From positions 25,816-89,815 of the IMG/VR virus record IMGVR_UViG_3300048606_000075: 64,000 bases of DNA; one strand, 5' to 3'. Source of the DNA: a virus. Its lineage: Duplodnaviria; Caudoviricetes. Positions 38,047 to 53,839 of this stretch are shown here, piece after piece. How positions within the stretch are numbered: the stretch's first letter is position 1; each line of letters starts with the position of its first letter. The notes under the pieces are model-generated. The model was not told the origin of the DNA, made no database searches, and was given only the letters and a program-made list of their open reading frames with translations. A program made the position numbers and the translations under genes.

Positions 38047-38066
38047 GCTCCAGTCTTCGCGCAGGG

Positions 38067-38726
38067 TCAGATGGCCCAGCCCGGGAGCCAGCCTGGAGGA
38101 GGCGACCACATGTTCTGGAAGGCTTCTAGCACCGTGGCGGGGAACGGATCCTTCGAACCAGCACGAGCCGCGACAAACGCCTCCGCGACCAGCTCGTGTG
38201 AGTCTATATGAGCCATCCCAGACAGAGCATCAGCCGCGTCATCACGGCGCACGCCGGACTCGCGCTCCAGGAAACACACGAAGTCCTCGACGCCCTGCTC
38301 AAAATCATGTAGATACCGACGAGCTAGGTCCATCTTCATGAGTAGGTGTCCCCACTCATGAACAAGAACTTCCTCAAAAGTGCTGCCCACAGAGCGATTG
38401 ACAATATTCAGACCTAGTAGTTCAGCATCAGATAAATCGCTTCGCAAAGCATGCTTAGACACATCAAGATGCCCAGAAACAGTGTGAAAAGTAGATATGC
38501 GAGACACCGCATAGGAGGGGGGCTTGAGAGACCGACTAGCTGAGACTTCGAGGACGGCTCCGGCGAGCCGGGGCCACTCTGCGGACAACTCCTCGATGAC
38601 ACGGGTCAGCCTGACACCGTAGACGCTACGTGCAATGTGCTTGTCAATTCTCACACGCTCCAAAACACCGCCAGGCCCATAGAAGCCACTGAGCGGCTTG
38701 GTGTGGGGTAGCAGGTCTATCGCCAT
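38067..38726 (-). CDS. zincin metallopeptidase-like protein
   Basis: VLVHEWGHLL and ELVAEAF; own putative promoter TTGTCA-N17-TAGTAC 6 nt before the ATG. Confidence 0.75.
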   Translation of the reverse strand: MAIDLLPHTKPLSGFYGPGGVLERVRIDKHIARSVYGVRLTRVIEELSAEWPRLAGAVLEVSASRSLKPPSYAVSRISTFHTVSGHLDVSKHALRSDLSDAELLGLNIVNRSVGSTFEEVLVHEWGHLLMKMDLARRYLHDFEQGVEDFVCFLERESGVRRDDAADALSGMAHIDSHELVAEAFVAARAGSKDPFPATVLEAFQNMWSPPPGWLPGWAI

Positions 38727-38746
38727 GCTGCTGTACTACCCTCATG

Positions 38747-39313
38747 TCAGGTCTGTGACAAGCGAGCAAACGCGATGATGTTATCGAGGTAGCGCCGGTT
38801 GTCTGGGTCATAATCCCCGCCACACGAGATCAGCCGCAGCTCAGGCACATCGGTGTCAGTGAAGATCTCATCGGTCGGGAACGAGGTCTTCACGATTTTC
38901 CTGGTCTTGTAGACCTTGAATGTAACGAAAGATCCGTCCTCACGATATACCTTGACTCGATCGTTTATCTTGACTGTATCAAGATACTTGAAGAGTCCAG
39001 CATGACCGTTGCCATTGATGTGCCCAAGGATGACAGCGGGGCCAGGCTCACCCGGACGGGGGCCCTCGCTGTACCAACTGCCAAGCTGCGGCTTGGCTAC
39101 CGGGGGATTGTCCCAGCCGCCCGCCTTGGTCAGCCCACGGCCCTCCACGGCCACCGGACCATCGATGCCGCGCCCCGACACGACTACCCGGACCGGACGC
39201 GGAGCGGGCTGCTCAGGAGCCGCTGTGGAGGGCGCTGACGGCTGCGGGGACTCCGCTGAACCACAACCGACCAGACCCACCAACAGCAGCACCAGGATGA
39301 GAGCCCGGATCAC
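38747..39313 (-). CDS. class F sortase
   Basis: Signal anchor; GSWYSEGPRPGEPGPAVILGH; LRLISCGG; YLDNIIAFA; GTGA overlap with the substrate gene. Confidence 0.92.
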   Translation of the reverse strand: MIRALILVLLLVGLVGCGSAESPQPSAPSTAAPEQPAPRPVRVVVSGRGIDGPVAVEGRGLTKAGGWDNPPVAKPQLGSWYSEGPRPGEPGPAVILGHINGNGHAGLFKYLDTVKINDRVKVYREDGSFVTFKVYKTRKIVKTSFPTDEIFTDTDVPELRLISCGGDYDPDNRRYLDNIIAFARLSQT

Positions 39314-39921
39314 GCCTGACCGCTCAACACCTTGCGGCCAGCGAAGCCCGCTGCCGCGATGAGCCCGAAGCCACCGAGCAACCACACCGGCTGATCATTG
39401 GCCGGTCCCTCACCGGTCTCCGGTGCACCCTTCGGGCGGTGCTTCACCCGGTCATCGTCACCATTGGTCTCGCAGCCGATGCCGTCGCCATCCAGGTCCA
39501 GGCTCTTCTGGAAGCGCGGGTTGGATGAGGAGACCGGGTCCACCCCGAGTCGACGCACGACCGCGCAGTTGGCGAACGGTGGCACGTTGTCATCGCTGGG
39601 ATCAGGAGTCTCCGAAGCGGACGGCTCGGTCGACGTGGTGCAGTTCAGCTTCTTCCTGATATCGGACAGCTGAACACTGTCGTCGATCTCGATGCTCTTA
39701 GCATCCTCGGGAACATCGATGCCCACGATGCCGTCGAGACTCCTGATCAGATTGCTATCCGCCAGCTGATTCAGAATCTGATCAACCTCAGCAATGCTTG
39801 TCGCCGCACAAACCTGCACGATGGGGGTCTCGGTCGTGGCAGCGGAGGCGGTAACGGGGAAGGCTGCGCTCATCACCGCGAGCGCGCCGGCAGAAAACGC
39901 GGTAACCAATAGCTTTTTCAT
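39310..39921 (-). CDS. secreted excalibur-domain protein with sortase sorting signal
   Basis: Signal peptide ...VTASA; FANCAVVRR...LDLDGDGIGCE; PKGAPETGEG followed by a TM segment and an RK tail. Confidence 0.88.
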   Translation of the reverse strand: MKKLLVTAFSAGALAVMSAAFPVTASAATTETPIVQVCAATSIAEVDQILNQLADSNLIRSLDGIVGIDVPEDAKSIEIDDSVQLSDIRKKLNCTTSTEPSASETPDPSDDNVPPFANCAVVRRLGVDPVSSSNPRFQKSLDLDGDGIGCETNGDDDRVKHRPKGAPETGEGPANDQPVWLLGGFGLIAAAGFAGRKVLSGQA

Positions 39922-39951
39922 CAAGACTCCAATGTGGGGCTGGGAAGTTAG

Positions 39952-40731
39952 TTAATTCAGCAGCCCCTGGCTAGAACAGACCTGGGGAGATACAGCAGGT
40001 CGATCCACCCTGCCGTCAGTGTAAGTAACGACGGCAACGCATCCTCCGTTACCGTCCGAGGCAAAAGTCAGTGACTGAATACCAGGACCAGCTGGACCTA
40101 TGCTGCCCTGATCCCCCTGCGCGCCCTGGGTTCCTTGATCACCTTTAGCACCCTGGTCACCCTTATCCCCTTGCTCCCCCTGATCGCCTTTTAAACCCGG
40201 GATCCCCTGATCCCCCTTGGATCCTTGATCGCCTCTGGATCCCTGGTTGCCTAAAGCACCCGGAGTGCCTGGGTCCCCCGCGCTCCCAGGCACTCCGGGC
40301 ACACCTTCCGGTCCCTGCTGGCCTCGGGGGCCGGGAGAGCCAGGGACGGCAGGAATGGGATTGTTGCTGACCGCATCAGCTTTGATGCACGCGGCCTGCG
40401 GCACCTGATCGCGGGCATCCGGATCGTTGCACGCCTCTTTGATCTGATCGGCAAGCGACTTGGCTTGCACCGCCGTGGCATCGCGCTCGGCTACCGCCAC
40501 ACCCGTCTGGACCTGAGCGGTGTCGGTCTTCTGCTTCTCCGCACGCAGGCCATAGACCAGGGACAGGGCAGCCAGGATCAACGCCAGCCCGACCAGGATG
40601 GGCCAGTACTTGCGGTACTTATTCCAGTCAAATGGTTCCTTCTCGATGGTCCGAAGATGTCTGCTCTTCGGGGAGGGTGGAAGGACTTTCGTCTCTTGCT
40701 TCTCGCGTTCTTTAAACGCGCCGATCTTCAT
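39952..40731 (-). CDS. membrane-anchored collagen-like protein
   Basis: N-terminal TM, about 30 Gly-X-Y triplets, Cys-flanked C-terminal module. Confidence 0.85.
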   Translation of the reverse strand: MKIGAFKEREKQETKVLPPSPKSRHLRTIEKEPFDWNKYRKYWPILVGLALILAALSLVYGLRAEKQKTDTAQVQTGVAVAERDATAVQAKSLADQIKEACNDPDARDQVPQAACIKADAVSNNPIPAVPGSPGPRGQQGPEGVPGVPGSAGDPGTPGALGNQGSRGDQGSKGDQGIPGLKGDQGEQGDKGDQGAKGDQGTQGAQGDQGSIGPAGPGIQSLTFASDGNGGCVAVVTYTDGRVDRPAVSPQVCSSQGLLN

Positions 40732-41180
40732 TAGAACGCCCCACAATTTGGATTGTCTGGCAGTGGGTTCTCAGAACGAACCTGCTCAAGCTTCCTGATA
40801 GCATCCACATACTCAGTAATCGCAATACGACCCAGCACCGGATCGCCATGAGTATTAGCTGTCAAAAGCTTAATCTGAGCATCGGCTTCATCGCGCTGCG
40901 CATCAGAACGCTGCTTCAAGGAGTCGTGAACAGCAATATTGTATCTAGTCTGACAAGAAGTTGCCTGGTAGTAACGAATACTAGACAAGACAAGCAGTGC
41001 CAAGATACAAATACCCAGAATAGACTTAAAAATATCTACTCTGTATCCTCGAATGTCCACAACTTTTTGCTCCTCCATAGCAGCCCGGAGAGCAGACTCG
41101 GTTAGAAACCAACAAAGGACATACCCAACTATCAAGCCACCTATAGACCATATAAGGCCGTCAATAATTCGCTCGGCCAT
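40731..41180 (-). CDS. membrane protein
   Basis: Two TM segments; TAATG coupling. Confidence 0.7.
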   Translation of the reverse strand: MAERIIDGLIWSIGGLIVGYVLCWFLTESALRAAMEEQKVVDIRGYRVDIFKSILGICILALLVLSSIRYYQATSCQTRYNIAVHDSLKQRSDAQRDEADAQIKLLTANTHGDPVLGRIAITEYVDAIRKLEQVRSENPLPDNPNCGAF

Positions 41181-41182
41181 AA

Positions 41183-41419
41183 CTACTTAACCCCCGACTC
41201 GATACGTCCGGGCTCGGGGTCTTCCTCACCTTTGCCCTTGTCATCGGATTTCTTACCTCCGCGTGACAAAGCTAAGGCGCCGCCTACAACAGCCATAAAA
41301 ATGCCATTGATAGCAACATCTGGCTGATACTGATCCACCACAAACTGAGCCGCAAAGTTAACCGCCCACACGACAGTGACCAGCACAATGATCACTGTTG
41401 CTAAAGGCTTGGGGATCAC
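41183..41419 (-). CDS. small two-TM membrane protein
   Basis: Hydrophobic N-terminus, charged tail. Confidence 0.7.
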   Translation of the reverse strand: MIPKPLATVIIVLVTVVWAVNFAAQFVVDQYQPDVAINGIFMAVVGGALALSRGGKKSDDKGKGEEDPEPGRIESGVK

Positions 41420-44061: not shown

Positions 44062-44889
44062 TCAAGAACAAACAAGTACTCGGTCTCGGCCACCATCTGG
44101 ACGAACACCTGCAATTCGGCGACGCTGCACATAGAGACCACTCGAACGCTGCACCAAGTCATCCTCGTGATGTCCTGGGCCGAAGAAAGGCAGGAACTGC
44201 GACGGACTGCCCGGGTTGACGGCAGTGAACAGCGTGGACATCGTGGTCGACTTGGCGGCGGGTGTGCACGCCGAAGTAGGCGACTGCACACCCGAGACTG
44301 AGGTGTTGTAGATGAAACCACTGTTCAACGGGTCAATCAGTGCGGTGTAGCCTGCGGTCTGGCCAGAAGTGGTCGCGGCGCCAGCGTTGATCCAGGCCCA
44401 GCCGAAATACCCGCTTCCGGAATTTCCTGGGGTGAGTGATGGCCAGGTAACAGTGGTCGAAGCGGTATTGTTAATCTGAGATGCACCAGCGCCATCTACC
44501 GACCAAGCGGTCAGTGCGCCGACACTCGCACACGTGAGTTGCTGAGCGGTGATGTCAACCCAAGTGCTGGTGTTAGCCGTGGTGGTGACGGTTGCATTGA
44601 TGGCTCCAGTGGCAGTGGCTACTCCGGCCCACATCGACAGCTGGAGGTTACCGCCGGAGCCGGGACCACGGATGCTGGTGATCAACGTCCAGGTGCCTGA
44701 GCCAGGTAGCCCGACACAGTGTCCTCCGGAGACAGCCGTGGGCATGGTCGTGGTCGTGATGCTCTCCACCGCGATACCCAGCCACACCAAGTTGCCGATA
44801 GCGGTGGGGTTAACAGAGATCGTCCGGACTGTTTGCGACTCGGCGTGGGTGAGGGCGCCAACGACGGAGATCGCCTGTCCAAATGCCAT
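44062..44889 (-). CDS. Thr/Ser/Gly-rich virion protein (minor tail-like)
   Basis: Beta-rich; similar to the N-half of the adjacent lyase gene (TWPSLTPG vs TMPTLVPG). Confidence 0.65.
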   Translation of the reverse strand: MAFGQAISVVGALTHAESQTVRTISVNPTAIGNLVWLGIAVESITTTTMPTAVSGGHCVGLPGSGTWTLITSIRGPGSGGNLQLSMWAGVATATGAINATVTTTANTSTWVDITAQQLTCASVGALTAWSVDGAGASQINNTASTTVTWPSLTPGNSGSGYFGWAWINAGAATTSGQTAGYTALIDPLNSGFIYNTSVSGVQSPTSACTPAAKSTTMSTLFTAVNPGSPSQFLPFFGPGHHEDDLVQRSSGLYVQRRRIAGVRPDGGRDRVLVCS

Positions 44890-44890
44890 A

Positions 44891-46384
44891 TCAGAGGCCC
44901 GACGCTTGAAAGAACAGCATAAATTCATCTGTGGATGGAAGAGTAAGCGCATCAGCAGTGGTCCAGCCAGTATGCCAATGTCGCAGGTACTTAAGCTCTA
45001 CAGTTGTATAAATAGTACCAGTATCAAATGTTTCATTAGTTTGGCAATATGATCCGGCCTTGAAGTAATACTCGGCGCTGCCACTAAAGACACCAACACC
45101 GCCACCAGCGGCATAACCCACTGAATCCCAGAAAGGGACACTCAAGTCTTGATAATAGAAAGCCCAATATCCTGCATTGATATAAAGCATCCAGTCGAAC
45201 TCATCGCCATAAGTATAATTAGTGCTAAGTTTAGGCTGACCCGTGCCAGTATCAAAAACTCGAGTTCTTAACTCAGTAAGTCCTGACCCAGTATTTTCTT
45301 GCGTATATATAGTAAGTACTTCACCAACATTGCTCGGACCATCATGCAGCTGACAAACTGTGACACGTGGACGTACAGTACCTAAAGATGTAATTTTAGT
45401 TCTACCGCGAATCCAATGAATGCCTGAATTAGCATTAAACGCAAACTCAGTAACACCATCAGGATCCATCTCCCGAAGCTCACACCTCGGGAACGTAGTG
45501 CCGCTAGTCAGAGAACCGTCAGCCCGGACGGACAACTGCGCAGAACTGTTAGCGGGGACTCGCACAAAATGTGGATCAGTATTGTATCCACTAATCAAAG
45601 CTGACTGTGGAATCTCACTAGACTCTGTGTATCCAGTTAAGCCCAACTGCAACTTAAAATGATTCTTACCCCCAGCACTACCAATATTCAATACAGTAGG
45701 AAGTGATGTATCAGCTTCAGTAGCATAAATTAAAAGACCAATACAGTCTGATGTAGTAGAAGTAGTCTGTTTACCAATTGGAGACTGAGAAGTACTAACA
45801 GATAGATTTGTAATCCACTGGTTACCCATAGAATCAATAGATGACGCATAACCAGCAGTGATTCCCGTAGCAGTAGCAGTACCTGCAGGATCTCCATAAC
45901 TAATATATGCGCGACTAGAACCACCAGGCACTAACGTAGGCATAGTTAAGTTTGTAGAACTAGTGGTGTTTCTAAGGAGCCCGGACGCTTCGACAACCCA
46001 CGAAGTGCCGGCAGACACAGCACTAGTAGTAATCTCTCGCCATGCATATCCGACAGCAATGGACGCAACTGATGCGGATGCCGTAGCTGTAAGTGTTTGA
46101 CTTGATACTACTGACGTAACTTTGCCCGCAAAAACACTAAATGTCTGAGCAGGTAAAGTTCCATTAGCCGCAAACGAAAAAACACCAATCTGTTCCCAGT
46201 CAGCTACACCATTACCAGAAATACCTGTAATACTAACAGTAGCAGATCTAGTGATGGCAATAAGTATCATACATTTGCCAACACCAGTAGTAGTAAAACC
46301 GTTAACACTCAGGTTATTACTAACTAAGTTATTAGTAGAGTCAACAGTAGAAGACCCTATTGCACTAATCGTAGCGTTAGCCAT
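44891..46384 (-). CDS. virion protein with C-terminal polysaccharide lyase family 7 domain
   Basis: PL7 signature trio PRCELRE, CQLHD, YFKAGSYCQ. Confidence 0.82.
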   Translation of the reverse strand: MANATISAIGSSTVDSTNNLVSNNLSVNGFTTTGVGKCMILIAITRSATVSITGISGNGVADWEQIGVFSFAANGTLPAQTFSVFAGKVTSVVSSQTLTATASASVASIAVGYAWREITTSAVSAGTSWVVEASGLLRNTTSSTNLTMPTLVPGGSSRAYISYGDPAGTATATGITAGYASSIDSMGNQWITNLSVSTSQSPIGKQTTSTTSDCIGLLIYATEADTSLPTVLNIGSAGGKNHFKLQLGLTGYTESSEIPQSALISGYNTDPHFVRVPANSSAQLSVRADGSLTSGTTFPRCELREMDPDGVTEFAFNANSGIHWIRGRTKITSLGTVRPRVTVCQLHDGPSNVGEVLTIYTQENTGSGLTELRTRVFDTGTGQPKLSTNYTYGDEFDWMLYINAGYWAFYYQDLSVPFWDSVGYAAGGGVGVFSGSAEYYFKAGSYCQTNETFDTGTIYTTVELKYLRHWHTGWTTADALTLPSTDEFMLFFQASGL

Positions 46385-46387
46385 TGA

Positions 46388-46681
46388 TTAATCTTCAATT
46401 GGAGTGTAACCATAGCCAACGGTACCGTGCATATCACTATCAGGATTAGATGTCCAAGTCCCGAAATTAAACCCTACCCACCAACCAGGTTGAACAGTCA
46501 TCATCAACTGAGTGTTATGTACAATAAAAACACGAGTCTCATCATGTTGATCCGCAAACACCTGAAGATCACCAGGGACAACATCATCCAATTCCTGAGC
46601 AAATTCTTCAATCGTCCCAGAATACTGCACCATCGTATAAACTGGAACTTCCGGAGTCTGAGTAAACTGACCCTTTGTCAT
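46388..46681 (-). CDS. hypothetical protein
   Basis: SD AGGAG before MTKGQF. Confidence 0.6.
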   Translation of the reverse strand: MTKGQFTQTPEVPVYTMVQYSGTIEEFAQELDDVVPGDLQVFADQHDETRVFIVHNTQLMMTVQPGWWVGFNFGTWTSNPDSDMHGTVGYGYTPIED

Positions 46682-46695
46682 ATTATTTCTCCTGG

Positions 46696-48021
46696 TCAGA
46701 CCGAAGCGGTGTAGGCCAGCAACACCCATGCAGAAAGCTGGCTAGAGTATCTAAAGCCAAAGAACCCAACCTTGCTGGCTGCAATGGCGTTAGCCGCGCT
46801 CAACCCTGTAGTCAAAATTGGACCAGACACCGTAACGGTGCGTCCAGTACCACCCGGAGCCACCGAGACCATCAACATCTGTCCGTCCACAGCACCAGTA
46901 GTCGAAGGCGTCAATGCGGTGATGTTGGCGCTCGCTGTGACCATGACGTTGTTGCCCAACGTCGGATCAATAGTCACTGTGCCAGAAGTAGTTCCATGCG
47001 TGTATGGAGCACTAGTGACTAAGTCAAGGCTTGGGTTAGGGTAAGTTCCATTCAGACAACCGCCGGCCGTGCCATTCGGTGCGCGCGAATCAGTGAACCG
47101 CGAGTCATTGCCGAACGGCACGGTGGACCCCGTCGTGCCAGTCGGAATCCGAGCGATGTCAAGCGTGCCGGAACCGATATCAGAAGCCGCGAGCGCCAAC
47201 GCGGTCTTCAACGTAGCCAGGCTCTGCGCGGCCCACGCACCAGACACCCGGCGGATGACATCACCGTCAGAGGGGGTTAGCGCGGCGAGAGCGGTCAGGT
47301 CGCTGTCAAGCGGCTGCGCACCGAAGTCAACTGCCTGGTAATCCAGATCTGTCTTCAGCTGAGCAATCGTACGATTAATCCACGCGCCAGCCTTACGCTG
47401 CAAAATGTCATTATCAGCGGGCGTAAGACCAGCAATGGATGTCAAGTCAGAGTCTAACGGTTGATAGACCGACCCAAGACTAAAATCAGACAACAACTGA
47501 GCCAGTGTCCGATTGGTCCAATGACCGCTCTTACGCTGAAGAATGTCATTATCAGTTGGCGTCAGTGCCGCAACATCAGTGAGATCCCCATCCAACACCT
47601 GCTTACCATCAAGCGCCGTCTGCTGTGCACTAGAAACAGGCTTAGCTGTATCAGCTGTGTTATCAACATTTCCTAAACCAACATCAGCCTTAACTAAAGA
47701 CAATGCAGTCTTAAACTGAGAATAAGTCTTCTTAACCCATCCAGAACCATCAGAAGCTATAGCACCGGATACAGACGAATCAAATCCTGCAATAGCCGTC
47801 AGATCAGTATCTAAAGACTGCTTACCGTCGAGAGCTGTCTGAATGACAGAATTAATGCCGCCAGTAGATGTAGCGCTTCCTACCTTAATATTAAATGTAC
47901 CGTCATCAATATACAATTCTTTAGAATCAGTCGCATAACGCAACTCACCAGCCTCTGTCCCGCCAGAGGGAAGAGAGGCCACGACGCCACGACGAATCTT
48001 GATTTTATTGTCTTGCGCCAT
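46696..48021 (-). CDS. tail fibre-like protein with repeats
   Basis: KIKIRRGVVASLP...GELRYATDSKELYIDDG head; repeats LDxDLTxIAxLxP shared with 48960..50954. Confidence 0.75.
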   Translation of the reverse strand: MAQDNKIKIRRGVVASLPSGGTEAGELRYATDSKELYIDDGTFNIKVGSATSTGGINSVIQTALDGKQSLDTDLTAIAGFDSSVSGAIASDGSGWVKKTYSQFKTALSLVKADVGLGNVDNTADTAKPVSSAQQTALDGKQVLDGDLTDVAALTPTDNDILQRKSGHWTNRTLAQLLSDFSLGSVYQPLDSDLTSIAGLTPADNDILQRKAGAWINRTIAQLKTDLDYQAVDFGAQPLDSDLTALAALTPSDGDVIRRVSGAWAAQSLATLKTALALAASDIGSGTLDIARIPTGTTGSTVPFGNDSRFTDSRAPNGTAGGCLNGTYPNPSLDLVTSAPYTHGTTSGTVTIDPTLGNNVMVTASANITALTPSTTGAVDGQMLMVSVAPGGTGRTVTVSGPILTTGLSAANAIAASKVGFFGFRYSSQLSAWVLLAYTASV

Positions 48022-48066
48022 ACCCTACATCCTCACGCCAGTAAATCGCTTCACTATCTGAATGTA

Positions 48067-48960
48067 TTAAACTGACGGTTCAGTAAAATAAATCCGAACG
48101 ACAACGTCATCAATATAGTTAGCATCCAAATAAAGTTGAAAATAATCGTAATAGTTAATATGAATTCTTTTATCCCTATCAAAACGAACTTTATAGGTAG
48201 AAAAACTTGCCGGATCAAGTGATACTCCATACCACCAACCAATAATACCTCCACCAGCATCGGAACCAAAAAGACGTGCACGACTAGATGACGGAAGTAC
48301 ACCTCCATCATTTAACGCAACAGTACCAATATTAGAGCCGCTCTCACTGTCATTCCAATTAGCAAACCGAGATGCTCGAATTCGAGGTTTACCAGTATTT
48401 GAAGTATAAGGAGCAATAATATCAAATCCTGTAATCGTTACTCCTGCAGCTCCGCCCACTAATTTCAAAATTTTATCGGAACTTGTAAATTCAGTTTCTG
48501 CATAATAAATATTTTCTGAATTTTCAATCCAATAAATAGTAGCAACGACATCCTGACTTCCGTAAGTGTCATCAACAAATAATTGAAAAAAGTTTTCCGG
48601 ATCAAGAGTTACAGGAATACCATCTCGACATCTATAAGAAAATGTCATAGGACGATCTGAATCTGTTATCAAATCAAATAAACTTGTAAAATCACCTGAA
48701 CCAGGAAAATAACTGTCCCCAGATCCACCAAGTTTGGCAATTGAAGTAGGTGCCCGCTCCGCATCAAGAAACATAGGAGGTGCCCCTACAAAATCGCCGC
48801 CAGTGTAATCTGTCAATCTCTTCACAGTGAACGACGGCTCCCAACCGCTACTATTGTCCGGAGCATAAATATCAAACCCAACAACCTTAGCTCCGTAATC
48901 ACCAGCAATAAGATTGAGAGTCCTTTTGGTACTAGTGAAAATTCCAGATGTAGAAAACAT
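48067..48960 (-). CDS. AT-rich protein of two duplicated beta domains
   Basis: GAKVVGFDIYAP...FFQLFVD vs GVTITGFDIIAP...YFQLYLD. Confidence 0.65.
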   Translation of the reverse strand: MFSTSGIFTSTKRTLNLIAGDYGAKVVGFDIYAPDNSSGWEPSFTVKRLTDYTGGDFVGAPPMFLDAERAPTSIAKLGGSGDSYFPGSGDFTSLFDLITDSDRPMTFSYRCRDGIPVTLDPENFFQLFVDDTYGSQDVVATIYWIENSENIYYAETEFTSSDKILKLVGGAAGVTITGFDIIAPYTSNTGKPRIRASRFANWNDSESGSNIGTVALNDGGVLPSSSRARLFGSDAGGGIIGWWYGVSLDPASFSTYKVRFDRDKRIHINYYDYFQLYLDANYIDDVVVRIYFTEPSV

Positions 48961-50954
48961 TAAAATGTCCCTCCATCAATAGTCTTACTGTTAAGAGTTA
49001 CTGTGGCAGAATTCTTTGAAGAATCAGATGTATTATCAACGTTACCTAAACCGACATCTGACTTAGTCAAAGTCGCAGCAGTCCAAGCTGAACTTGCTCT
49101 CTTTATAAAGGTCCCATCAGCAGGAGCCAAGGCAGCAATTGCTGTTAAATCAGAATCTAACGGTTGATACGTAGCAGCTAAGCCAAGGTCACTAGATAAC
49201 TGAGCCAAGGTTCTATTGACCCAAGAACCAGATTTACGCTGAATAATATCATTATTAGTTGGAATAAGAGAAGCTATATCTGTCAGATCAATATCCGACG
49301 CTTGTTTTGAATCCAAGGCAGTCTGAGTAGCTGTACTAATAGGCTTCGCTGTGTCAGATGTATTATCAACGTTACCTAAACTCAAATCTGTCTTAAGCTG
49401 AATCATAGTGCGGTTAATCCACACACCAGCTTTACGCTGAATTATATCATCATTAGAGGGAGACAGACCAGAAATAGAAGTCAATGCTGCATTCAAAGCC
49501 TGCTTACCATCAAGGGCAGTCTGTTGTGCGGTAGAAACAGGCTTAGCAGTGTCAGCAGTATTGTCAACACTGCCTAATCCGACATCTGCTTTAACTAAAC
49601 TCAATGCAGTCTTAAACTGCGAATAAGTCTTCTTGACCCAACCAGATCCATCCGAAGCAATTGCACCGGCAATAGCCGAATTAAATCCCGCAATAGCCGT
49701 CAGATCAGAGTCAAGAGTCTGCTTACCATCAAGGGCAGTCTGTTGTGCGGTAGAAACAGGCTTAGCAGTGTCAGCAGTATTGTCAACACTGCCTAATCCA
49801 ACATCTGCTTTAACCAACGTCCCAGCTGCCCAGGCACCAGAAACACGCTTAATAAATGTGCCATCAGACGGCGCGAGACCAGCCAGAGTCGTCAAGTCAG
49901 AATCAAGAGCTTGCTTACCATCAAGAGCAGTCTGAGTAGCAGTGCTAACGGGCTTAGCAACATCAGAAGTGTTATCAACATTGCCTAATCCAACATCTGC
50001 TTTAACAAGTACAAGATCAGTCTTCAACTGAGCCATAGTGCGATTAACCCACGCACTAGACTTACGCTGAATGATATCATTATCAGCTGGAGTAAGAATA
50101 CCAGAAATAGAAGTCAATGCTGCATTCAAAGCCTGCTTGCCATCAAGTGCGGTCTGCTGTGCAGTTGACACAGGCTTAGCAGTATCAGCCGTATTGTCAA
50201 CATTGCCTAAGCCGACGTCACCCTTGACTAACGTCGAGGCTGCCCAGGCGCCCGAGACGCGTTTCACGAACGTGCCGTCAGACGGTGCAAGCGCGGCCAG
50301 CGTCATCAGATCCGAGTCCAGCGGCTGATACCCGGAGAGGGCCGACGCCTCCGCCAGGCCGGTCACCGCGCCGGTGCGTCCGTTGACACTGGACACCGGG
50401 GCCGATGGATAGGTCAGCTCACGCCAGTTACCCAACGTGGACGACGGCTCCGCGATCAGCTGCCAGTTGGTGCCCAGATCGCTACGAGTGGTCCAGTCAC
50501 CGCGTTGCCCGGAGAGGGCGAGCATCTCTGTCTGGTCCGCGACCGCGCCCAGGAACTCGGTGATGGCGATGGCCGGCAGATACGCCTGTGGGACCTTGTT
50601 ACCGCCGTCCAACTTGAGCCAACCGTTGGCGACGTTGGCTAGCGATGCGAGCGGAGTGCGCTCATTGCTCAGCCTGGAATCGTCATGGCGGACCGGGTTG
50701 CCGGACGCGCCAGGGGCGGGAACAAGGGGGGCTGAGCTGAATGTCTTGACGCCAGCTATGGTCTCGGCACCGGTGTTGTGCACCACGGCGGAGTCAGCGG
50801 CGGCGCCGATACTCGATGGCGATACCGGGTCATCACCGCCTACCGCGTGCCGAGCGGCGTGGGGAGTGGTGCCGCCGTCCGCACCAGGGTCTCCCTGCTC
50901 ACCCTGCTCACCTTGCGGACCCAGTAAGCTTCCACGCTCTGTCCAGGTAGCCAC
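48960..50954 (-). CDS. tail fibre protein with KADVGLGNVDNTxD repeats
   Basis: Five full plus one partial repeat; collagen-like N-terminus. Confidence 0.82.
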   Translation of the reverse strand: MATWTERGSLLGPQGEQGEQGDPGADGGTTPHAARHAVGGDDPVSPSSIGAAADSAVVHNTGAETIAGVKTFSSAPLVPAPGASGNPVRHDDSRLSNERTPLASLANVANGWLKLDGGNKVPQAYLPAIAITEFLGAVADQTEMLALSGQRGDWTTRSDLGTNWQLIAEPSSTLGNWRELTYPSAPVSSVNGRTGAVTGLAEASALSGYQPLDSDLMTLAALAPSDGTFVKRVSGAWAASTLVKGDVGLGNVDNTADTAKPVSTAQQTALDGKQALNAALTSISGILTPADNDIIQRKSSAWVNRTMAQLKTDLVLVKADVGLGNVDNTSDVAKPVSTATQTALDGKQALDSDLTTLAGLAPSDGTFIKRVSGAWAAGTLVKADVGLGSVDNTADTAKPVSTAQQTALDGKQTLDSDLTAIAGFNSAIAGAIASDGSGWVKKTYSQFKTALSLVKADVGLGSVDNTADTAKPVSTAQQTALDGKQALNAALTSISGLSPSNDDIIQRKAGVWINRTMIQLKTDLSLGNVDNTSDTAKPISTATQTALDSKQASDIDLTDIASLIPTNNDIIQRKSGSWVNRTLAQLSSDLGLAATYQPLDSDLTAIAALAPADGTFIKRASSAWTAATLTKSDVGLGNVDNTSDSSKNSATVTLNSKTIDGGTF
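49501..49799. repeat. 80-nt identical direct repeat (49501-49580 and 49720-49799)
   Basis: Seen directly; lies within the tail fibre repeat array. Confidence 0.85.
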
Positions 50955-50960
50955 CGGCGG

Positions 50961-51476
50961 TTATGCCGTCTGCTCGTAGTAAGTACCGGTGGCCGAATCA
51001 AGATACATGTCGCCCACCGCTGAACCGGTAACCGTGCCCGGGACGCCGGAAGCGGTGAACCACTTCGATCCGCGAGCACCGGTGGAACCGGTCGATCCTG
51101 TCGCTCCGGTTGTGCCCTGGATGCCCTGGGTACCTTGTGAACCGGTCGCTCCAGTGGCGCCAGTCGCACCGGTCAAACCAATCGGACCACGGAAATCCGC
51201 TCCGGCACCATCAGCGGGGAATGCATCGCCGTCCCAAATATAAAGCTTGCCATCAGCGTTATTCAGATAACCATTACCTGCATCATCATGCGTAAGATCA
51301 CTAGGAAGGGCCGCATAGTTGGCCACCGACCCAGCGATGGCAACGCCAGCCCCGTCCTCACCAGGGGGGCCCTGCTCACCCTGAACGCCCTGGATGCCTT
51401 GAGGACCCTCGGGACCATCCGGCCCCACATCACCCTGTGGACCTTTGATATTTCCACGTTGAGTCCACGTAGCCAC
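50961..51476 (-). CDS. collagen-like tail-associated protein
   Basis: MATWTQRGNIKGPQG; G-X-Y repeats; GDMYLDSATGTYY; same N-terminus as the adjacent fibre gene. Confidence 0.75.
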   Translation of the reverse strand: MATWTQRGNIKGPQGDVGPDGPEGPQGIQGVQGEQGPPGEDGAGVAIAGSVANYAALPSDLTHDDAGNGYLNNADGKLYIWDGDAFPADGAGADFRGPIGLTGATGATGATGSQGTQGIQGTTGATGSTGSTGARGSKWFTASGVPGTVTGSAVGDMYLDSATGTYYEQTA

Positions 51477-51533
51477 GCGACACTCCCTCAGCTCGCCCTA
51501 GAGGAGTCTTCGAGCGAGGGATGCGGCCAGTAA

Positions 51534-51749
51534 CTACGGACCAGGTGTCAGTTCATATACATCGCCGGTGAGTGAGTCCCAGTATAGGTCGCCTGTACTA
51601 GCTCCAGGAACCAACTCTGGTGGTGGACCTTCACCAACCCACCACTTCTCACCTTTCAAAAACGGAGAACCAGAGTACACAGTGACAACGTCCTGAATGA
51701 CAGTTGTCTCAATTTCATTGCCAACTCGGATGACAGTGATATCAGACAT
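51534..51749 (-). CDS. small tail-associated protein
   Basis: GDLYWDSLTGDVYE motif shared with 50961..51476. Confidence 0.6.
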   Translation of the reverse strand: MSDITVIRVGNEIETTVIQDVVTVYSGSPFLKGEKWWVGEGPPPELVPGASTGDLYWDSLTGDVYELTPGP

Positions 51750-51760
51750 AACTATTCATC

Positions 51761-52204
51761 CTAAAGATGCGGAGGGGCAGGAATAGCTGAAGTCGCGCTC
51801 TCTGCTACATCTTGTCTGGCAATCATTCTCCCACTGACAAGGGTATACCGCTCAAGAACTTCATTAACATATCGCTCAAGTTCTATCTCAAAATTAGCAG
51901 CGAAAGGTGTCCAGAGTTGAGATTCATCAGCAGTATGAAATAGCTGAACAGTATTGGTAGTCGCCCAAAGACCGTCAGAAGTATACTGAACCTGAGCCTC
52001 GCCAATAATTACTCTGCCGTTTTCAGTAGTCCATTCCTGGATAACAGCAGAAGACGAAATTCTACGTGCCTGACACTTCACAGACCAATGTCCGAACTCA
52101 GGCGTCATGTCAACAGGCAAGTCATCAATCAACACCGCATACTTGGGAGAAACCCAGGTGTCCCCCAGACGGAACCTCAACACTTCATTCTCTAGGGTTC
52201 CCAC
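51761..52204 (-). CDS. BppU N-terminal-like baseplate/adaptor protein
   Basis: GDTW...DMT...VKCQAR...LFHTADES...EIELE...YTLVSG pattern. Confidence 0.5.
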   Translation of the reverse strand: MGTLENEVLRFRLGDTWVSPKYAVLIDDLPVDMTPEFGHWSVKCQARRISSSAVIQEWTTENGRVIIGEAQVQYTSDGLWATTNTVQLFHTADESQLWTPFAANFEIELERYVNEVLERYTLVSGRMIARQDVAESATSAIPAPPHL

Positions 52205-52223
52205 CGCACACCGCCATCAAGTG

Positions 52224-52445
52224 TCAAGACGCCCGGACCTCTGGAGGCTTCGACTGTTTGGCTAACTCCGATCGCTCGCTAGCCATCCAAGTACGGGGAT
52301 TAAATCCCCAATAATCAGCATCCCAATCGGAAGCCAAATGCTTGCACTCATATAATTTGTCCAACAACTCATCAATTAACGCTGGATCTTTGGCTATGGA
52401 TAATCTCTTCAGCAAAGCTGTAATGACTTCCGGACTAGCACCCAT
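52224..52445 (-). CDS. hypothetical protein
   Basis: 73 aa after the endolysin. Confidence 0.5.
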   Translation of the reverse strand: MGASPEVITALLKRLSIAKDPALIDELLDKLYECKHLASDWDADYWGFNPRTWMASERSELAKQSKPPEVRAS

Positions 52446-52470
52446 CGGAACCTCCGGCGCTGAAGCGGGG

Positions 52471-53325
52471 CTACAGGCCCAGAACCTTCCTGGTAGCGGT
52501 ACCGACTACCCCGTCCACGGCCAGACCAGCCTTAGCCTGCAGATACCGCACGGCCGTATCCGTCGAAGGAGCAAACGTTCCATCCTCCACCAGCGGCCAC
52601 CAGATCGGCTTGGCTGTCTTATACCAAGCATTCAGAACACGCTGCAGTGACTTCACATCGTCCCCCGTCATAAGGGACTTGCCCTTAGTGTAAGACAAGG
52701 CGCGGGTAGACGACACAGGCGCCGTAGGCGTCACCGACCCGGAGCCCTTGAGCTTGGTCAGGATGCGGGTGCACACCGACTCGGCCGAGATGATCTCGAA
52801 GTGCATCTCATCCTTGCGGCCGGTGTAATCACCGCCCCAGCGGACCGCGCCCTCGCACTCCACGTTCACAATTGTATGAATGGTTGAGACCTGACCAGAG
52901 TTCCACGTGCCCACACTGGCGAGCGGGTGCCGGGGAGCGTGCCAGTCCATCGCCGTACCCGATGAATGATTGGACAGACTACTTGCGGCGAACAGCGTGT
53001 CTTCATTATCGAAGCAACACGGTCGGTTGGCCTCGTCCAACTCCAGCAGCGAGTCCAACGCTTCGATGCGCGACGCCTTCAGAAGCTTTCGATCCTTCTT
53101 GCTTAACTTCATGGCACGGATGTCTCTGTAGGCATACCCCCACATGCCATAGGCGTCCGCACCGTTCTCTACGCGCGTATGCAGCTGCGCAGCCACGTAC
53201 AACAGAAGATCCCCAGCGGGGCCCTTGCGCAACCCACCCGGGAACAAGATGGACGTGCCCGGAACGGCCGGGTTGTAGATGACCGAGCGATCCCCAGCGG
53301 AGTACCCGTTCTGAGAGACAACCAT
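52471..53325 (-). CDS. endolysin: M15 peptidase plus peptidoglycan-binding domain
   Basis: SQNGY, WGYAYRDIR, SNHSSGTAMD, DEMHFEI; C-terminal GDDVKSLQ...DGTF...AVRYLQ..GLAVDGVVG; SD GAAAGGA. Confidence 0.9.
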   Translation of the reverse strand: MVVSQNGYSAGDRSVIYNPAVPGTSILFPGGLRKGPAGDLLLYVAAQLHTRVENGADAYGMWGYAYRDIRAMKLSKKDRKLLKASRIEALDSLLELDEANRPCCFDNEDTLFAASSLSNHSSGTAMDWHAPRHPLASVGTWNSGQVSTIHTIVNVECEGAVRWGGDYTGRKDEMHFEIISAESVCTRILTKLKGSGSVTPTAPVSSTRALSYTKGKSLMTGDDVKSLQRVLNAWYKTAKPIWWPLVEDGTFAPSTDTAVRYLQAKAGLAVDGVVGTATRKVLGL

Positions 53326-53335
53326 AGTGTCCTTT

Positions 53336-53839
53336 CTAAGCCGGATCGCCTTCTTCAATAGCGGAGGCAAAACGCTGATAGAGAGGCTTGGATTCTTCGC
53401 GCGGAAGCGTCTGTAGCACATTTGCTACAATGCGCGCGGTATGAGATGACACAATCTGGTGCAGAGCATCCGGGGAGATCTTCGAGCTGTGTGCACCAGC
53501 CGCTAAATCGTTAGCGGTGTCTCGCCAAAGCTTGTACAGGTGCTCTCGATATCGAGGATTCGGCCAGCTATTGGTAGACTCGTGATATCGAATCCTGATG
53601 TAGTAAGTGGCCACCCGCTCCAGCTGCATCGCGGCGATGGTGCCGGTTGGAAGATGCTGTGCGTCCCGGCGAAGCTCCTCTACCAGCGAGGCGTGCAGCT
53701 GCTGCAGCTCAGCGGTGGAATCCGTGGGAGCCCGCCACATTGCGGACGGGAGTTGGTCAAAGGCTAAGTCATTCTGTACTAACTGACATTCTTGGCCAGA
53801 CCCCTCAGGTACAGGCTGAAGATACGCTCGATCTGACAT
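53336..53839 (-). CDS. hypothetical helical protein (possible terminase small subunit)
   Basis: SD GGAG; function is only a guess from size and helical content. Confidence 0.45.
   Translation of the reverse strand: MSDRAYLQPVPEGSGQECQLVQNDLAFDQLPSAMWRAPTDSTAELQQLHASLVEELRRDAQHLPTGTIAAMQLERVATYYIRIRYHESTNSWPNPRYREHLYKLWRDTANDLAAGAHSSKISPDALHQIVSSHTARIVANVLQTLPREESKPLYQRFASAIEEGDPA

What the first reader, a model, noticed from the sequence alone, without database searches (positions are those of the whole stretch)
38747..39921. Phage-encoded class F sortase plus its own cell-wall-anchored substrate
Seen: an apparently intact sortase F (His in ILGH, Cys in LISCGG, Asn in LDN) is coupled by a GTGA overlap to a secreted protein with an excalibur Ca-binding motif and a C-terminal PKGAPETGEG + TM + RK tail. 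Known: actinobacterial class F sortases typically sit next to substrates with non-LPXTG PxG...TG signals. Inference: the phage brings a self-contained system to attach its own protein covalently to the host peptidoglycan (superinfection exclusion, receptor masking or host surface remodelling). A complete pair beside the terminase region is unexpected in a phage genome.
Basis: partly seen in the sequence, partly recalled or inferred. Interest (0 to 1): 0.85.

Follow-up and report, generated by a model that had tools for sequence, protein, structure and literature searches.

The report
Phage class F sortase with substrate
A large uncultured phage of actinobacteria carries its own protein-stapling enzyme (a class F sortase) coupled to a secreted calcium-binding protein with the matching attachment tag, so it probably fixes one of its own proteins onto the envelope of the infected cell.

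Summary
A 203-aa secreted Excalibur-domain protein ends in PKGAPETGEGPA, a hydrophobic segment and RK. A GTGA overlap couples it to a 188-aa lipoprotein sortase that keeps His98, Cys164 and Asn178, the class F signature.

The contig is a real phage fragment: 89.8 kb, about 66% complete, with terminase, portal, a tRNA array and no integrase found. The pair is not a recent insertion. Relatives with 70-96% identical sortases show the same gene order, and dN/dS is 0.07-0.29.

A survey of 29 public actinobacterial class F loci found an upstream P-x-x-x-x-x-T-G-type tag in at least 21.

I found the cassette in eight further viral lineages and in none of 50,697 deposited phage genomes. Those eight substrates stop just after the tag. 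Only this lineage keeps the full membrane tail.

Attachment to peptidoglycan and any biological role remain inference. An October 2026 preprint reports sortase B modules in huge phages. This scan has noted phage class F cassettes before on other DNA. I rate it a new variant of a known kind, of moderate to high interest.

The parts
39310..39921 (-). Substrate gene, 203 aa: signal peptide, a small two-Cys N-terminal domain, an S/T/P/D-rich linker, an Excalibur domain and a class F-type sorting signal
   Evidence: dN/dS is 0.17-0.28 against relatives. Only 7 homologues were found in 5.8 billion proteins, all on fragments of this phage lineage.
39841..39921 (-). Sec-type signal peptide, about residues 1-27 (MKK, hydrophobic core, TASA|A)
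   Evidence: Read directly from the sequence. No signal-peptide predictor was available.
39469..39576 (-). Excalibur calcium-binding domain with the DLDGDGIGCE motif and Cys119/Cys150
   Evidence: Pfam PF05901, 34 bits against a cut-off of 22. The residues are invariant in 7 homologues.
39400..39435 (-). Sorting motif P163-K-G-A-P-E-T-G-E-G-P-A174. The core P-x-x-x-P-E-T-G-x-G-P-A is invariant.
   Evidence: The same type of motif lies upstream of at least 21 of 29 cellular class F sortases. The NCBIfam GVDTG_CTERM hit is weak, 17.6 bits against a cut-off of 29.
39331..39387 (-). Hydrophobic membrane segment (V179-G195) followed by R196-K197
   Evidence: The best 14-residue Kyte-Doolittle mean is 1.94. 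The segment is nearly invariant in homologues.
39310..39313 (-). GTGA stop/start overlap that couples substrate and sortase translation
   Evidence: The same 4-nt overlap occurs in phage relatives and in the Amycolatopsis and Pseudonocardia loci.
38747..39313 (-). Class F-type sortase, 188 aa, with lipobox L14-V15-G16-C17 (39263-39274), His98 (39020-39022), Cys164 (38822-38824) and Asn178 (38780-38782)
   Evidence: dN/dS is 0.07-0.29.
39952..40731 (-). Collagen-like type II membrane protein (phrog_18350 family), immediately upstream. It may belong to the module.
   Evidence: Homologues lie one or two genes upstream of the sortase in 5 of 9 phage lineages.
38067..38726 (-). 219-aa orphan protein with an invariant HEWGH motif, between sortase and terminase in every relative. 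Its link to the pair is unknown.
   Evidence: Weak leads point to anthrax-lethal-factor/Pro-Pro-endopeptidase-like metalloproteases.

Best explanation
This is a phage-borne class F sortase cassette, maintained by selection, that acts on its own partner protein in the envelope of the infected actinobacterial cell.

Shown by sequence:
- The substrate has a Sec signal peptide, so it is exported.
- Its C-terminal hydrophobic segment plus RK would hold it in the membrane.
- The sortase has a lipoprotein signal, so it would be tethered to the outer face of the membrane by lipidated Cys17.
- The two genes are translationally coupled.

Inferred by analogy with other sortases:
- Cys164 attacks the tag at P-E-T|G and forms a thioester with Thr170.
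- The G-E-G-P-A-to-tail fragment is released.
- The protein is passed to an amine acceptor, most probably a peptidoglycan precursor.
- The small two-Cys domain and the calcium-binding Excalibur domain thus become fixed covalently on the cell wall.

The cassette lies among fibre, endolysin, membrane-protein and packaging genes, so late expression is likely. The most plausible use is to modify the wall surface, and the wall debris left after lysis, against adsorption of further phage or of the phage's own progeny. That last step is speculation.
For: - The sortase domain and class F signature residues are present and conserved. Asn-for-Arg is the published class F trait.
- The tag matches the C-termini encoded upstream of at least 21 of 29 public cellular class F sortase loci, 19 of them with a TM plus basic tail.
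- It is the only ORF with such a signal in the contig.
- The order substrate, sortase, 219-aa gene, terminase, portal is kept in relatives whose sortases are 70-96% identical, and in a 186-kb relative at 50%.
- dN/dS is 0.07-0.29 for both genes.
- Phage context: terminase 39% identical to that of Microbacterium phage Magritte, Mu-type portal, 19 tRNAs, endolysin and fibre genes upstream, and no integrase in the fragment or in the complete relative.
- Eight further viral lineages carry the cassette next to hallmark phage genes.
- All 13 phage sortases have a lipobox.
Against: - No class F enzyme of this Asn type has a demonstrated reaction or acceptor.
- Deleting all four class F genes in Actinoplanes gave no phenotype.
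- The sortase scores below NCBIfam's class F cut-off, 145.7 against 166.
- The tag scores below the GVDTG_CTERM cut-off.
- In eight of nine phage lineages the substrate stops 1-6 residues after T-G, with no membrane tail. That fits classical wall sorting poorly and hints at another acceptor or at simple processing.
- There are no expression data, no known host, and no confident structure for the substrate (pLDDT 50).
Confidence: 0.6

Rival explanations
1. The sortase joins the substrate to another protein rather than to peptidoglycan. The acceptor would be the collagen-like type II membrane protein encoded just upstream. The result would be a phage-made surface fibre, assembled in the way class C sortases assemble pili.
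For: - Homologous membrane-anchored collagen-like proteins share a juxtamembrane A-x-x-L-x-x-Q-x-x-x-A-C...C motif and a C-terminal F-A-S-G..G-C motif.
- They lie one or two genes upstream of the sortase in the window lineage and in L050, L010, L055 and L056. These sit on three separate branches of the sortase tree.
- Tail-less substrates in most phage copies would need some other means of being kept at the surface.
Against: - phrog_18350 exists as a family built from deposited phages, and none of the 50,697 deposited records I searched has a class F sortase. The collagen-like protein therefore does not need a sortase.
- Four phage lineages (L051-L054) and the two cellular loci searched for collagen-like repeats (L008, L009) have no such neighbour.
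- No pilin-like Lys motif was identified.
- Both genes may simply share a hot spot for membrane or lysis genes.
Confidence: 0.12
2. The enzyme works only as a processing protease. It clips the C-terminal propeptide and membrane tail at PETG and so releases or matures a soluble calcium-binding protein, with no covalent attachment.
For: - Asn replaces the Arg that stabilises the transpeptidation transition state in other sortases.
- Many phage substrates, and at least two cellular ones, have only a 1-6-residue leaving group after T-G.
- No class F anchoring has ever been shown.
Against: - 19 of the 21 cellular substrates, and this one, keep the full tripartite signal that holds a precursor next to a membrane-bound transpeptidase.
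- The sortase fold, Cys and His are retained under purifying selection.
- A dedicated lipoprotein enzyme is an expensive way to remove a few residues.
Confidence: 0.2
3. The pair is bacterial DNA: host flank, a mis-assembled contig, or a recently captured passenger that is not expressed and has no role in the phage.
For: Sortases are cellular genes. None was found in 50,697 deposited phage genomes. The contig is an incomplete metagenomic fragment.
Against: - The genes lie inside a same-strand, tightly packed phage gene array, one gene from the terminase.
- Synteny is identical in independent assemblies from several samples.
- dN/dS is well below 1.
- The closest named cellular homologue is 44% identical.
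- The substrate family occurs only in this phage lineage.
Confidence: 0.03

Closest known systems
Chromosomal class F sortase loci of Actinomycetota (NCBIfam NF033748, InterPro IPR042001), for example the Amycolatopsis jejuensis and Pseudonocardia loci fetched here
   Same: - Sortase fold with His, Cys and Asn-for-Arg.
- A lipoprotein or membrane anchor.
- An upstream gene joined by a 4-nt overlap whose product ends in P-x-G-[GA]-[VAP]-x-T-G-x-G, usually followed by a TM segment and a basic tail.
- The phage enzyme groups with these sequences in the tree.
   Different: - It is encoded by a phage.
- It is at most 44% identical to any named cellular enzyme.
- It scores below the curated family cut-off.
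- Its passenger protein (two-Cys domain plus Excalibur) is confined to the phage lineage.
Sortase B plus upstream substrate modules in gut huge phages (Yuan & Chen, bioRxiv 10.64898/2026.10.24.761521)
   Same: A phage-encoded sortase sits immediately downstream of a gene for a signal-peptide protein with a sorting motif (PXTG there), a hydrophobic segment and a charged tail. That work also proposes display of phage proteins on the host wall.
   Different: - Those are class B enzymes with the His-Cys-Arg triad, related to Bacillota enzymes, in phages over 200 kb from animal guts.
- Here the enzyme is class F (Asn type). The phage is actinobacterial and estimated at about 135 kb from CheckV's completeness figure. 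The tag is not LPXTG and the sortase is a lipoprotein.
Cutibacterium (Propionibacterium) acnes SrtF, the only biochemically studied 'class F' sortase (Di Girolamo et al. 2019, cited in PMC8225981 and PMC13251363)
   Same: It carries the same class label and comes from an actinobacterium.
   Different: It is reported to be a housekeeping enzyme that recognises LPXTG. The motif here is x-P-E-T-G with a variable first position (A, P, H or S) and a conserved G-x-G-P-A extension. I could not read that paper, so no residue-level comparison was made.
Other phage class F sortase cassettes seen in IMG/VR and in earlier notes of this scan
   Same: - A lipoprotein class F sortase is coupled to a secreted substrate.
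- The cassette is often beside lysis, tail or packaging genes.
- Two of the substrates also carry an Excalibur-like domain (L055 above the Pfam cut-off, L056 below it).
-.
   Different: All eight others are tail-less: they stop 1-6 residues after T-G. This lineage alone keeps the TM segment and basic tail, the layout usual in cells.

Membership tests
Class F sortase (NCBIfam NF033748 / IPR042001) | Sortase domain (Pfam PF04203) above the gathering score | tested here: met
   59.7 bits against a cut-off of 26.6, E 3.2e-16. Also 60.7 bits in the own-genome search.
Class F sortase (NCBIfam NF033748 / IPR042001) | Score at or above the curated class F cut-off (166 bits) | tested here: not met
   145.7 bits over 150 of 155 profile positions. 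Class F is still far the best class; the next is class E at 21.8 bits. Cellular neighbours in the tree score 176-195 bits.
Class F sortase (NCBIfam NF033748 / IPR042001) | Catalytic His and Cys present | tested here: met
   H98 and C164 are invariant in 43 sequences. They align with the G-H and T-C motifs of solved sortases.
Class F sortase (NCBIfam NF033748 / IPR042001) | Asn in place of the catalytic Arg (PMC6998099) | tested here: met
   N178 in Y-L-D-N-I-I is kept in 41 of 43 sequences. The Arg at 173/174 is not conserved across the family. Structural equivalence to Arg197 of SrtA is inferred from spacing only.
Class F sortase (NCBIfam NF033748 / IPR042001) | Groups phylogenetically with sequences that pass the family cut-off | tested here: met
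   All 13 phage sequences share one side of a split (SH-aLRT 96) with 5 cellular class F enzymes. The tree has no outgroup from other classes.
Class F sortase (NCBIfam NF033748 / IPR042001) | Transpeptidase activity on its tag | not testable with these tools
   Needs biochemistry.
Sortase substrate with a tripartite cell-wall sorting signal | N-terminal secretion signal | tested here: met
   By inspection only: MKK, a hydrophobic core of about 18 residues, and an A-x-A site, all conserved in homologues.
Sortase substrate with a tripartite cell-wall sorting signal | Recognition motif of the type paired with this sortase class | tested here: met
   P-K-G-A-P-E-T-G-E-G fits P-x-x-[GASPHD]-[VAPIG]-x-[TA]-G, found upstream of at least 21 of 29 cellular class F loci.
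Sortase substrate with a tripartite cell-wall sorting signal | Hydrophobic segment followed by basic residues at the C-terminus | tested here: met
   V179-G195 followed by R196-K197.
NCBIfam NF058571 GVDTG_CTERM sorting domain | Score at or above the curated cut-off (29 bits) | tested here: not met
   17.6 bits, E 0.0034. Relatives score 13.6-15.1 bits and the Pseudonocardia substrate 18.4 bits.
Excalibur calcium-binding domain (PF05901) | Domain above the gathering score, with the D-x-D-x-D-G-x-x-C-E motif | tested here: met
   34 bits against a cut-off of 22, and the motif DLDGDGIGCE.
Phage sortase B-substrate modules (bioRxiv 10.64898/2026.10.24.761521) | Class B sortase with a His-Cys-Arg triad | tested here: not met
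   No class B model appears among the NCBIfam hits, and Asn replaces Arg.
Phage (Caudoviricetes) genome | Hallmark genes flank the cassette on the same strand | tested here: met
   Terminase, portal, MuF, tape measure, fibres, endolysin and a tRNA array are present. It is an IMG/VR record that CheckV rates 66% complete.

The most novel reading that the evidence does not exclude
Actinobacterial phages carry a three-gene surface module: a membrane-anchored collagen-like stalk protein, a secreted partner with a class F tag, and a lipoprotein class F sortase. The sortase ligates the partner onto the stalk or onto the wall. The infected cell, and the wall debris it leaves, would thereby gain a phage-made coat that controls further phage adsorption. 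The cassette would also give the first workable enzyme-substrate pair for defining the reaction and recognition signal of class F sortases, whose function is unknown.
Probability: 0.15. Interest if true: 0.8.

Novelty: new variant of a known kind. Interest (0 to 1): 0.6.

Why it matters
Sortases were thought to be cellular enzymes. The only report of phage sortases I found is an October 2026 preprint on class B enzymes in huge gut phages. A class F cassette in actinophages extends that idea to another phylum and another enzyme class.

Class F is the one sortase class with no known function, acceptor or agreed recognition motif. A compact, self-contained pair with an invariant tag, P-x-x-x-P-E-T-G-x-G-P-A, makes a ready test system for cleavage site, nucleophile and anchoring.

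If the protein is fixed to the wall, it would be a new way for a virus to modify the host surface covalently.

Tried and rejected
- **Deposited phages.** tblastn of three different phage class F sortases, the substrate and the collagen-like protein against 50,697 deposited phage genomes gave no match. I therefore could not ask what cultured phages do with the module.
- **PHROGs.** No family matches the sortase, the tail-less substrates or the 219-aa protein. The Excalibur substrate has only a weak hit to a family of unknown function.
- **Solved structures.** No sortase of this class was found by sequence. The profile search reached only class C, D and E enzymes at E of about 0.02, and those alignments stop before the Arg/Asn position. 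The Asn-for-Arg equivalence therefore rests on the literature and on spacing.
- **Structure models.** AlphaFold models of the substrate (pLDDT 50) and the 219-aa protein (pLDDT 52) were poor, and Foldseek gave nothing significant.
- **219-aa protein.** It has no Pfam, PDB-profile or Magritte gp11 similarity.
- **Lipobox as a subclade marker.** Rejected, because lipoboxes occur in both cellular clades.
- **Promoters and terminators.** The scan found nothing convincing around the pair.
- **Frameshift fusion.** I considered and rejected a fusion of tail-less substrates to the sortase signal peptide. The topology would place the sortase domain in the cytoplasm.
- **Host.** The host was not identified.

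Full report
**What is there.**
On the minus strand, a 203-aa gene (39921..39310) and a 188-aa gene (39313..38747) overlap by GTGA.

The first product has these features:
- a Sec-type signal peptide;
- a small domain bracketed by Cys38 and Cys94, the only part an AlphaFold model predicts with some confidence (pLDDT 70-81 for residues 32-95);
- a Ser/Thr/Pro/Asp-rich linker;
- an Excalibur calcium-binding domain (PF05901, 34 bits);
- a C-terminus reading R-P-K-G-A-P-E-T-G-E-G-P-A-N-D-Q-P, 17 hydrophobic residues, then R-K.

The second product is a sortase (PF04203, E 3e-16). Its only good class model is NCBIfam class F, at 145.7 bits over 150 of 155 positions. That is below the curated 166-bit cut-off, and the next class scores 21.8 bits. 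It begins with a lipoprotein signal (L-V-G-C17).

In an alignment of 43 phage and cellular class F sequences, His98 and Cys164 are invariant and Asn178 is kept in 41. The Arg residues at 173/174 are not conserved. A published survey states that class F enzymes of Actinobacteria carry Asn in place of the catalytic Arg (PMC6998099).

**Is it phage DNA?**
The window is part of an 89.8-kb IMG/VR record that CheckV rates 66% complete. Nearly every gene is on one strand and tightly packed.

In transcription order the region reads as follows:
- endolysin (Peptidase_M15_4 plus PG_binding_1);
- fibre-like genes (BppL_N, Mtd_N, an alginate-lyase-2 domain, a collagen-like protein);
- three small membrane proteins;
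- a collagen-like type II membrane protein (phrog_18350);
- substrate;
- sortase;
- a 219-aa HEWGH protein;
- large terminase;
- Mu-type portal;
- a 2826-aa MuF protein.

The terminase is 39% identical to that of Microbacterium phage Magritte (133 kb) and about 30% identical to those of 133-kb Streptomyces phages. There are 19 tRNA genes. I found no tyrosine integrase or large serine recombinase domain in the fragment. A 186-kb relative rated 100% complete has no tyrosine integrase or resolvase domain either. The phage is probably virulent and its host an actinobacterium, but the host was not identified.

**Not a recent passenger.**
The order substrate, sortase, 219-aa gene, terminase, portal recurs on independent metagenomic contigs. 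Their sortases are 96, 81, 72 and 72% identical to this one. It recurs again in the 186-kb relative, where the sortase is 50% identical.

Pairwise dN/dS is 0.07-0.29 for the sortase and 0.17-0.28 for the substrate, similar to the neighbouring genes. The closest named cellular sortase is 44% identical. The substrate family has only seven members among 5.8 billion proteins, all from this lineage.

Against the 186-kb relative, terminase and portal are 76% identical at the DNA level, yet the cassette region does not align. The position is conserved while the content evolves fast.

**Does the tag fit the enzyme?**
The literature I could search gives no recognition motif for these enzymes and calls class F function unknown. 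I therefore surveyed public genomes. The class F model hits 45 of 81 sampled genomes of the class. Six of those genomes are unpublished. They enter only that tally, and their loci were left out of everything else.

Of 29 evaluable public loci, at least 21 have a same-strand upstream gene ending in P-x-x-[GASPHD]-[VAPIG]-x-[TA]-G. The usual form is [V/M/T]-P-x-G-G-V-x-T-G-x-G. In 19 of these a hydrophobic segment and an Arg-rich tail follow. The phage tag P-K-G-A-P-E-T-G-E-G fits this pattern.

Within the phage lineage, P163, P167-E-T-G, G172-P-A, the hydrophobic segment and G-R-K-V-L-S-G are invariant. The residue before P167 varies among A, P, H and S. NCBIfam's GVDTG_CTERM model gives only sub-threshold hits of 13.6-18.4 bits. 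No other ORF in the contig carries such a signal.

**Wider picture.**
A profile scan of IMG/VR, together with one Logan contig, gave eight further viral lineages with a lipoprotein class F sortase and an upstream coupled substrate:
- L054: between terminase and portal;
- L010 and L056: next to the endolysin (the L056 record has terminal repeats and a tyrosine integrase);
- L052 and L055: near tail genes;
- L051: near a head decoration gene;
- L053: near a helicase.

The L055 substrate carries an Excalibur domain above the Pfam cut-off. The L056 substrate has a sub-threshold match. In all eight lineages the substrate stops 1-6 residues after T-G, with no membrane tail. Only the window's lineage keeps the full tripartite signal that is usual in cells.

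In a tree, all 13 phage enzymes lie with five cellular ones on one side of a supported split (SH-aLRT 96). The window lineage, L050, L051 and L052 form a phage-only group with support 87. Three different phage sortase queries found nothing in 50,697 deposited phage genomes.

**How it probably works.**
Export of the substrate, membrane retention, a lipid-anchored enzyme on the same face of the membrane, and coupled synthesis all follow directly from the sequences.

Three steps are inferred by analogy with other sortases and are not shown: cleavage at T|G, a Cys164 thioester, and transfer to a peptidoglycan amine. The Asn-type active site and the tail-less substrates elsewhere leave room for another acceptor or for plain processing.

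Homologues of the collagen-like membrane protein lie upstream of the cassette in five of nine phage lineages. This suggests a link but does not prove one. The family also exists as a PHROG built from deposited phages, and none of the deposited phage records searched has a class F sortase.

A role in masking the wall, or wall debris, against phage adsorption is speculation. It is compatible with the likely late-gene setting.

**Known work and verdict.**
The only paper I found on phage sortases is a preprint of 24 October 2026. It describes 24 sortase B genes with upstream PXTG substrates in gut huge phages and states that sortases had not been documented in viruses.

This scan's own notes already record phage class F cassettes on other DNA, including one ending A-P-E-T-G-D-G-S-T-E, the C-terminus I read in L050. 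I reached the tail-less pattern independently, before reading those notes.

It is best classed as a new variant of a known kind. Its distinctive points are the complete sorting signal and the Excalibur passenger.

Noticed in passing
window 38067-38726 (-), with motif at 38733-38740: This is a 219-aa orphan protein with an invariant HEWGH motif and downstream Glu residues, found between sortase and terminase in every relative. Language-model neighbours are 'Pro-Pro endopeptidase family' and anthrax-lethal-factor-related peptidase clusters. The only low-rmsd Foldseek rows are lethal-factor protease domains (E about 1.3, weak). It has no signal peptide. Its ATG is preceded by GGTAGTAC, a motif with 22 copies in the window against 6.5 expected.
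   Followed up: partly
window 39952-40731 (-); L010:4807-5460; L055:3834-4712; L056:4330-5130; L050:4649-5332: A family of type II membrane proteins (TM segment, two-Cys stalk motif, collagen repeats, small Cys-containing C-terminal domain; phrog_18350, labelled 'tail fiber') sits upstream of the sortase cassette in 5 of 9 phage lineages.
   Followed up: partly
L050, L051, L052, L053, L054, L055, L056, L010 (substrate genes ending at the sortase start): All eight other phage substrates end 1-6 residues after the T-G of the tag, with no membrane tail. Six of them share one layout: signal peptide, a Cys-bracketed Ala-rich helical domain, a Thr/Pro linker and the tag.
   Followed up: partly
L054:3985-8155: In a 30.8-kb, 73% GC viral contig the substrate-sortase pair is inserted directly between the large terminase and the portal gene.
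   Followed up: partly
window 44062-53421 (-): Upstream of the terminase there is a second block of fibre or receptor-binding-like genes (BppL_N, Mtd_N, alginate lyase 2, a collagen-like protein) and the endolysin. The main tail module with three 1200-aa paralogues lies far downstream.
   Followed up: no
protein P0062 (a 4.1-kb JGI contig, homologue of the substrate): This variant of the substrate has an insert of about 55 residues, made almost entirely of His/Asp/Lys/Arg repeats (HDRD and KDKD units), between the N-terminal domain and the Excalibur domain. It could be a metal-binding linker.
   Followed up: no
window 38065-41250 compared with G082:C1:148852-151990: The terminase and portal of a complete 186-kb relative are 76% identical in DNA to the window. 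The 219-aa gene, sortase, substrate and collagen-like genes between conserved flanks do not align at the DNA level, which points to a fast-evolving or recombining accessory slot.
   Followed up: partly
L008:3183-4004 (Amycolatopsis jejuensis): A cellular class F substrate belongs to NCBIfam 'choice-of-anchor P' (84.7 bits) and is itself tail-less, ending 7 residues after T-G. The tail-less form is therefore not restricted to phages.
   Followed up: partly
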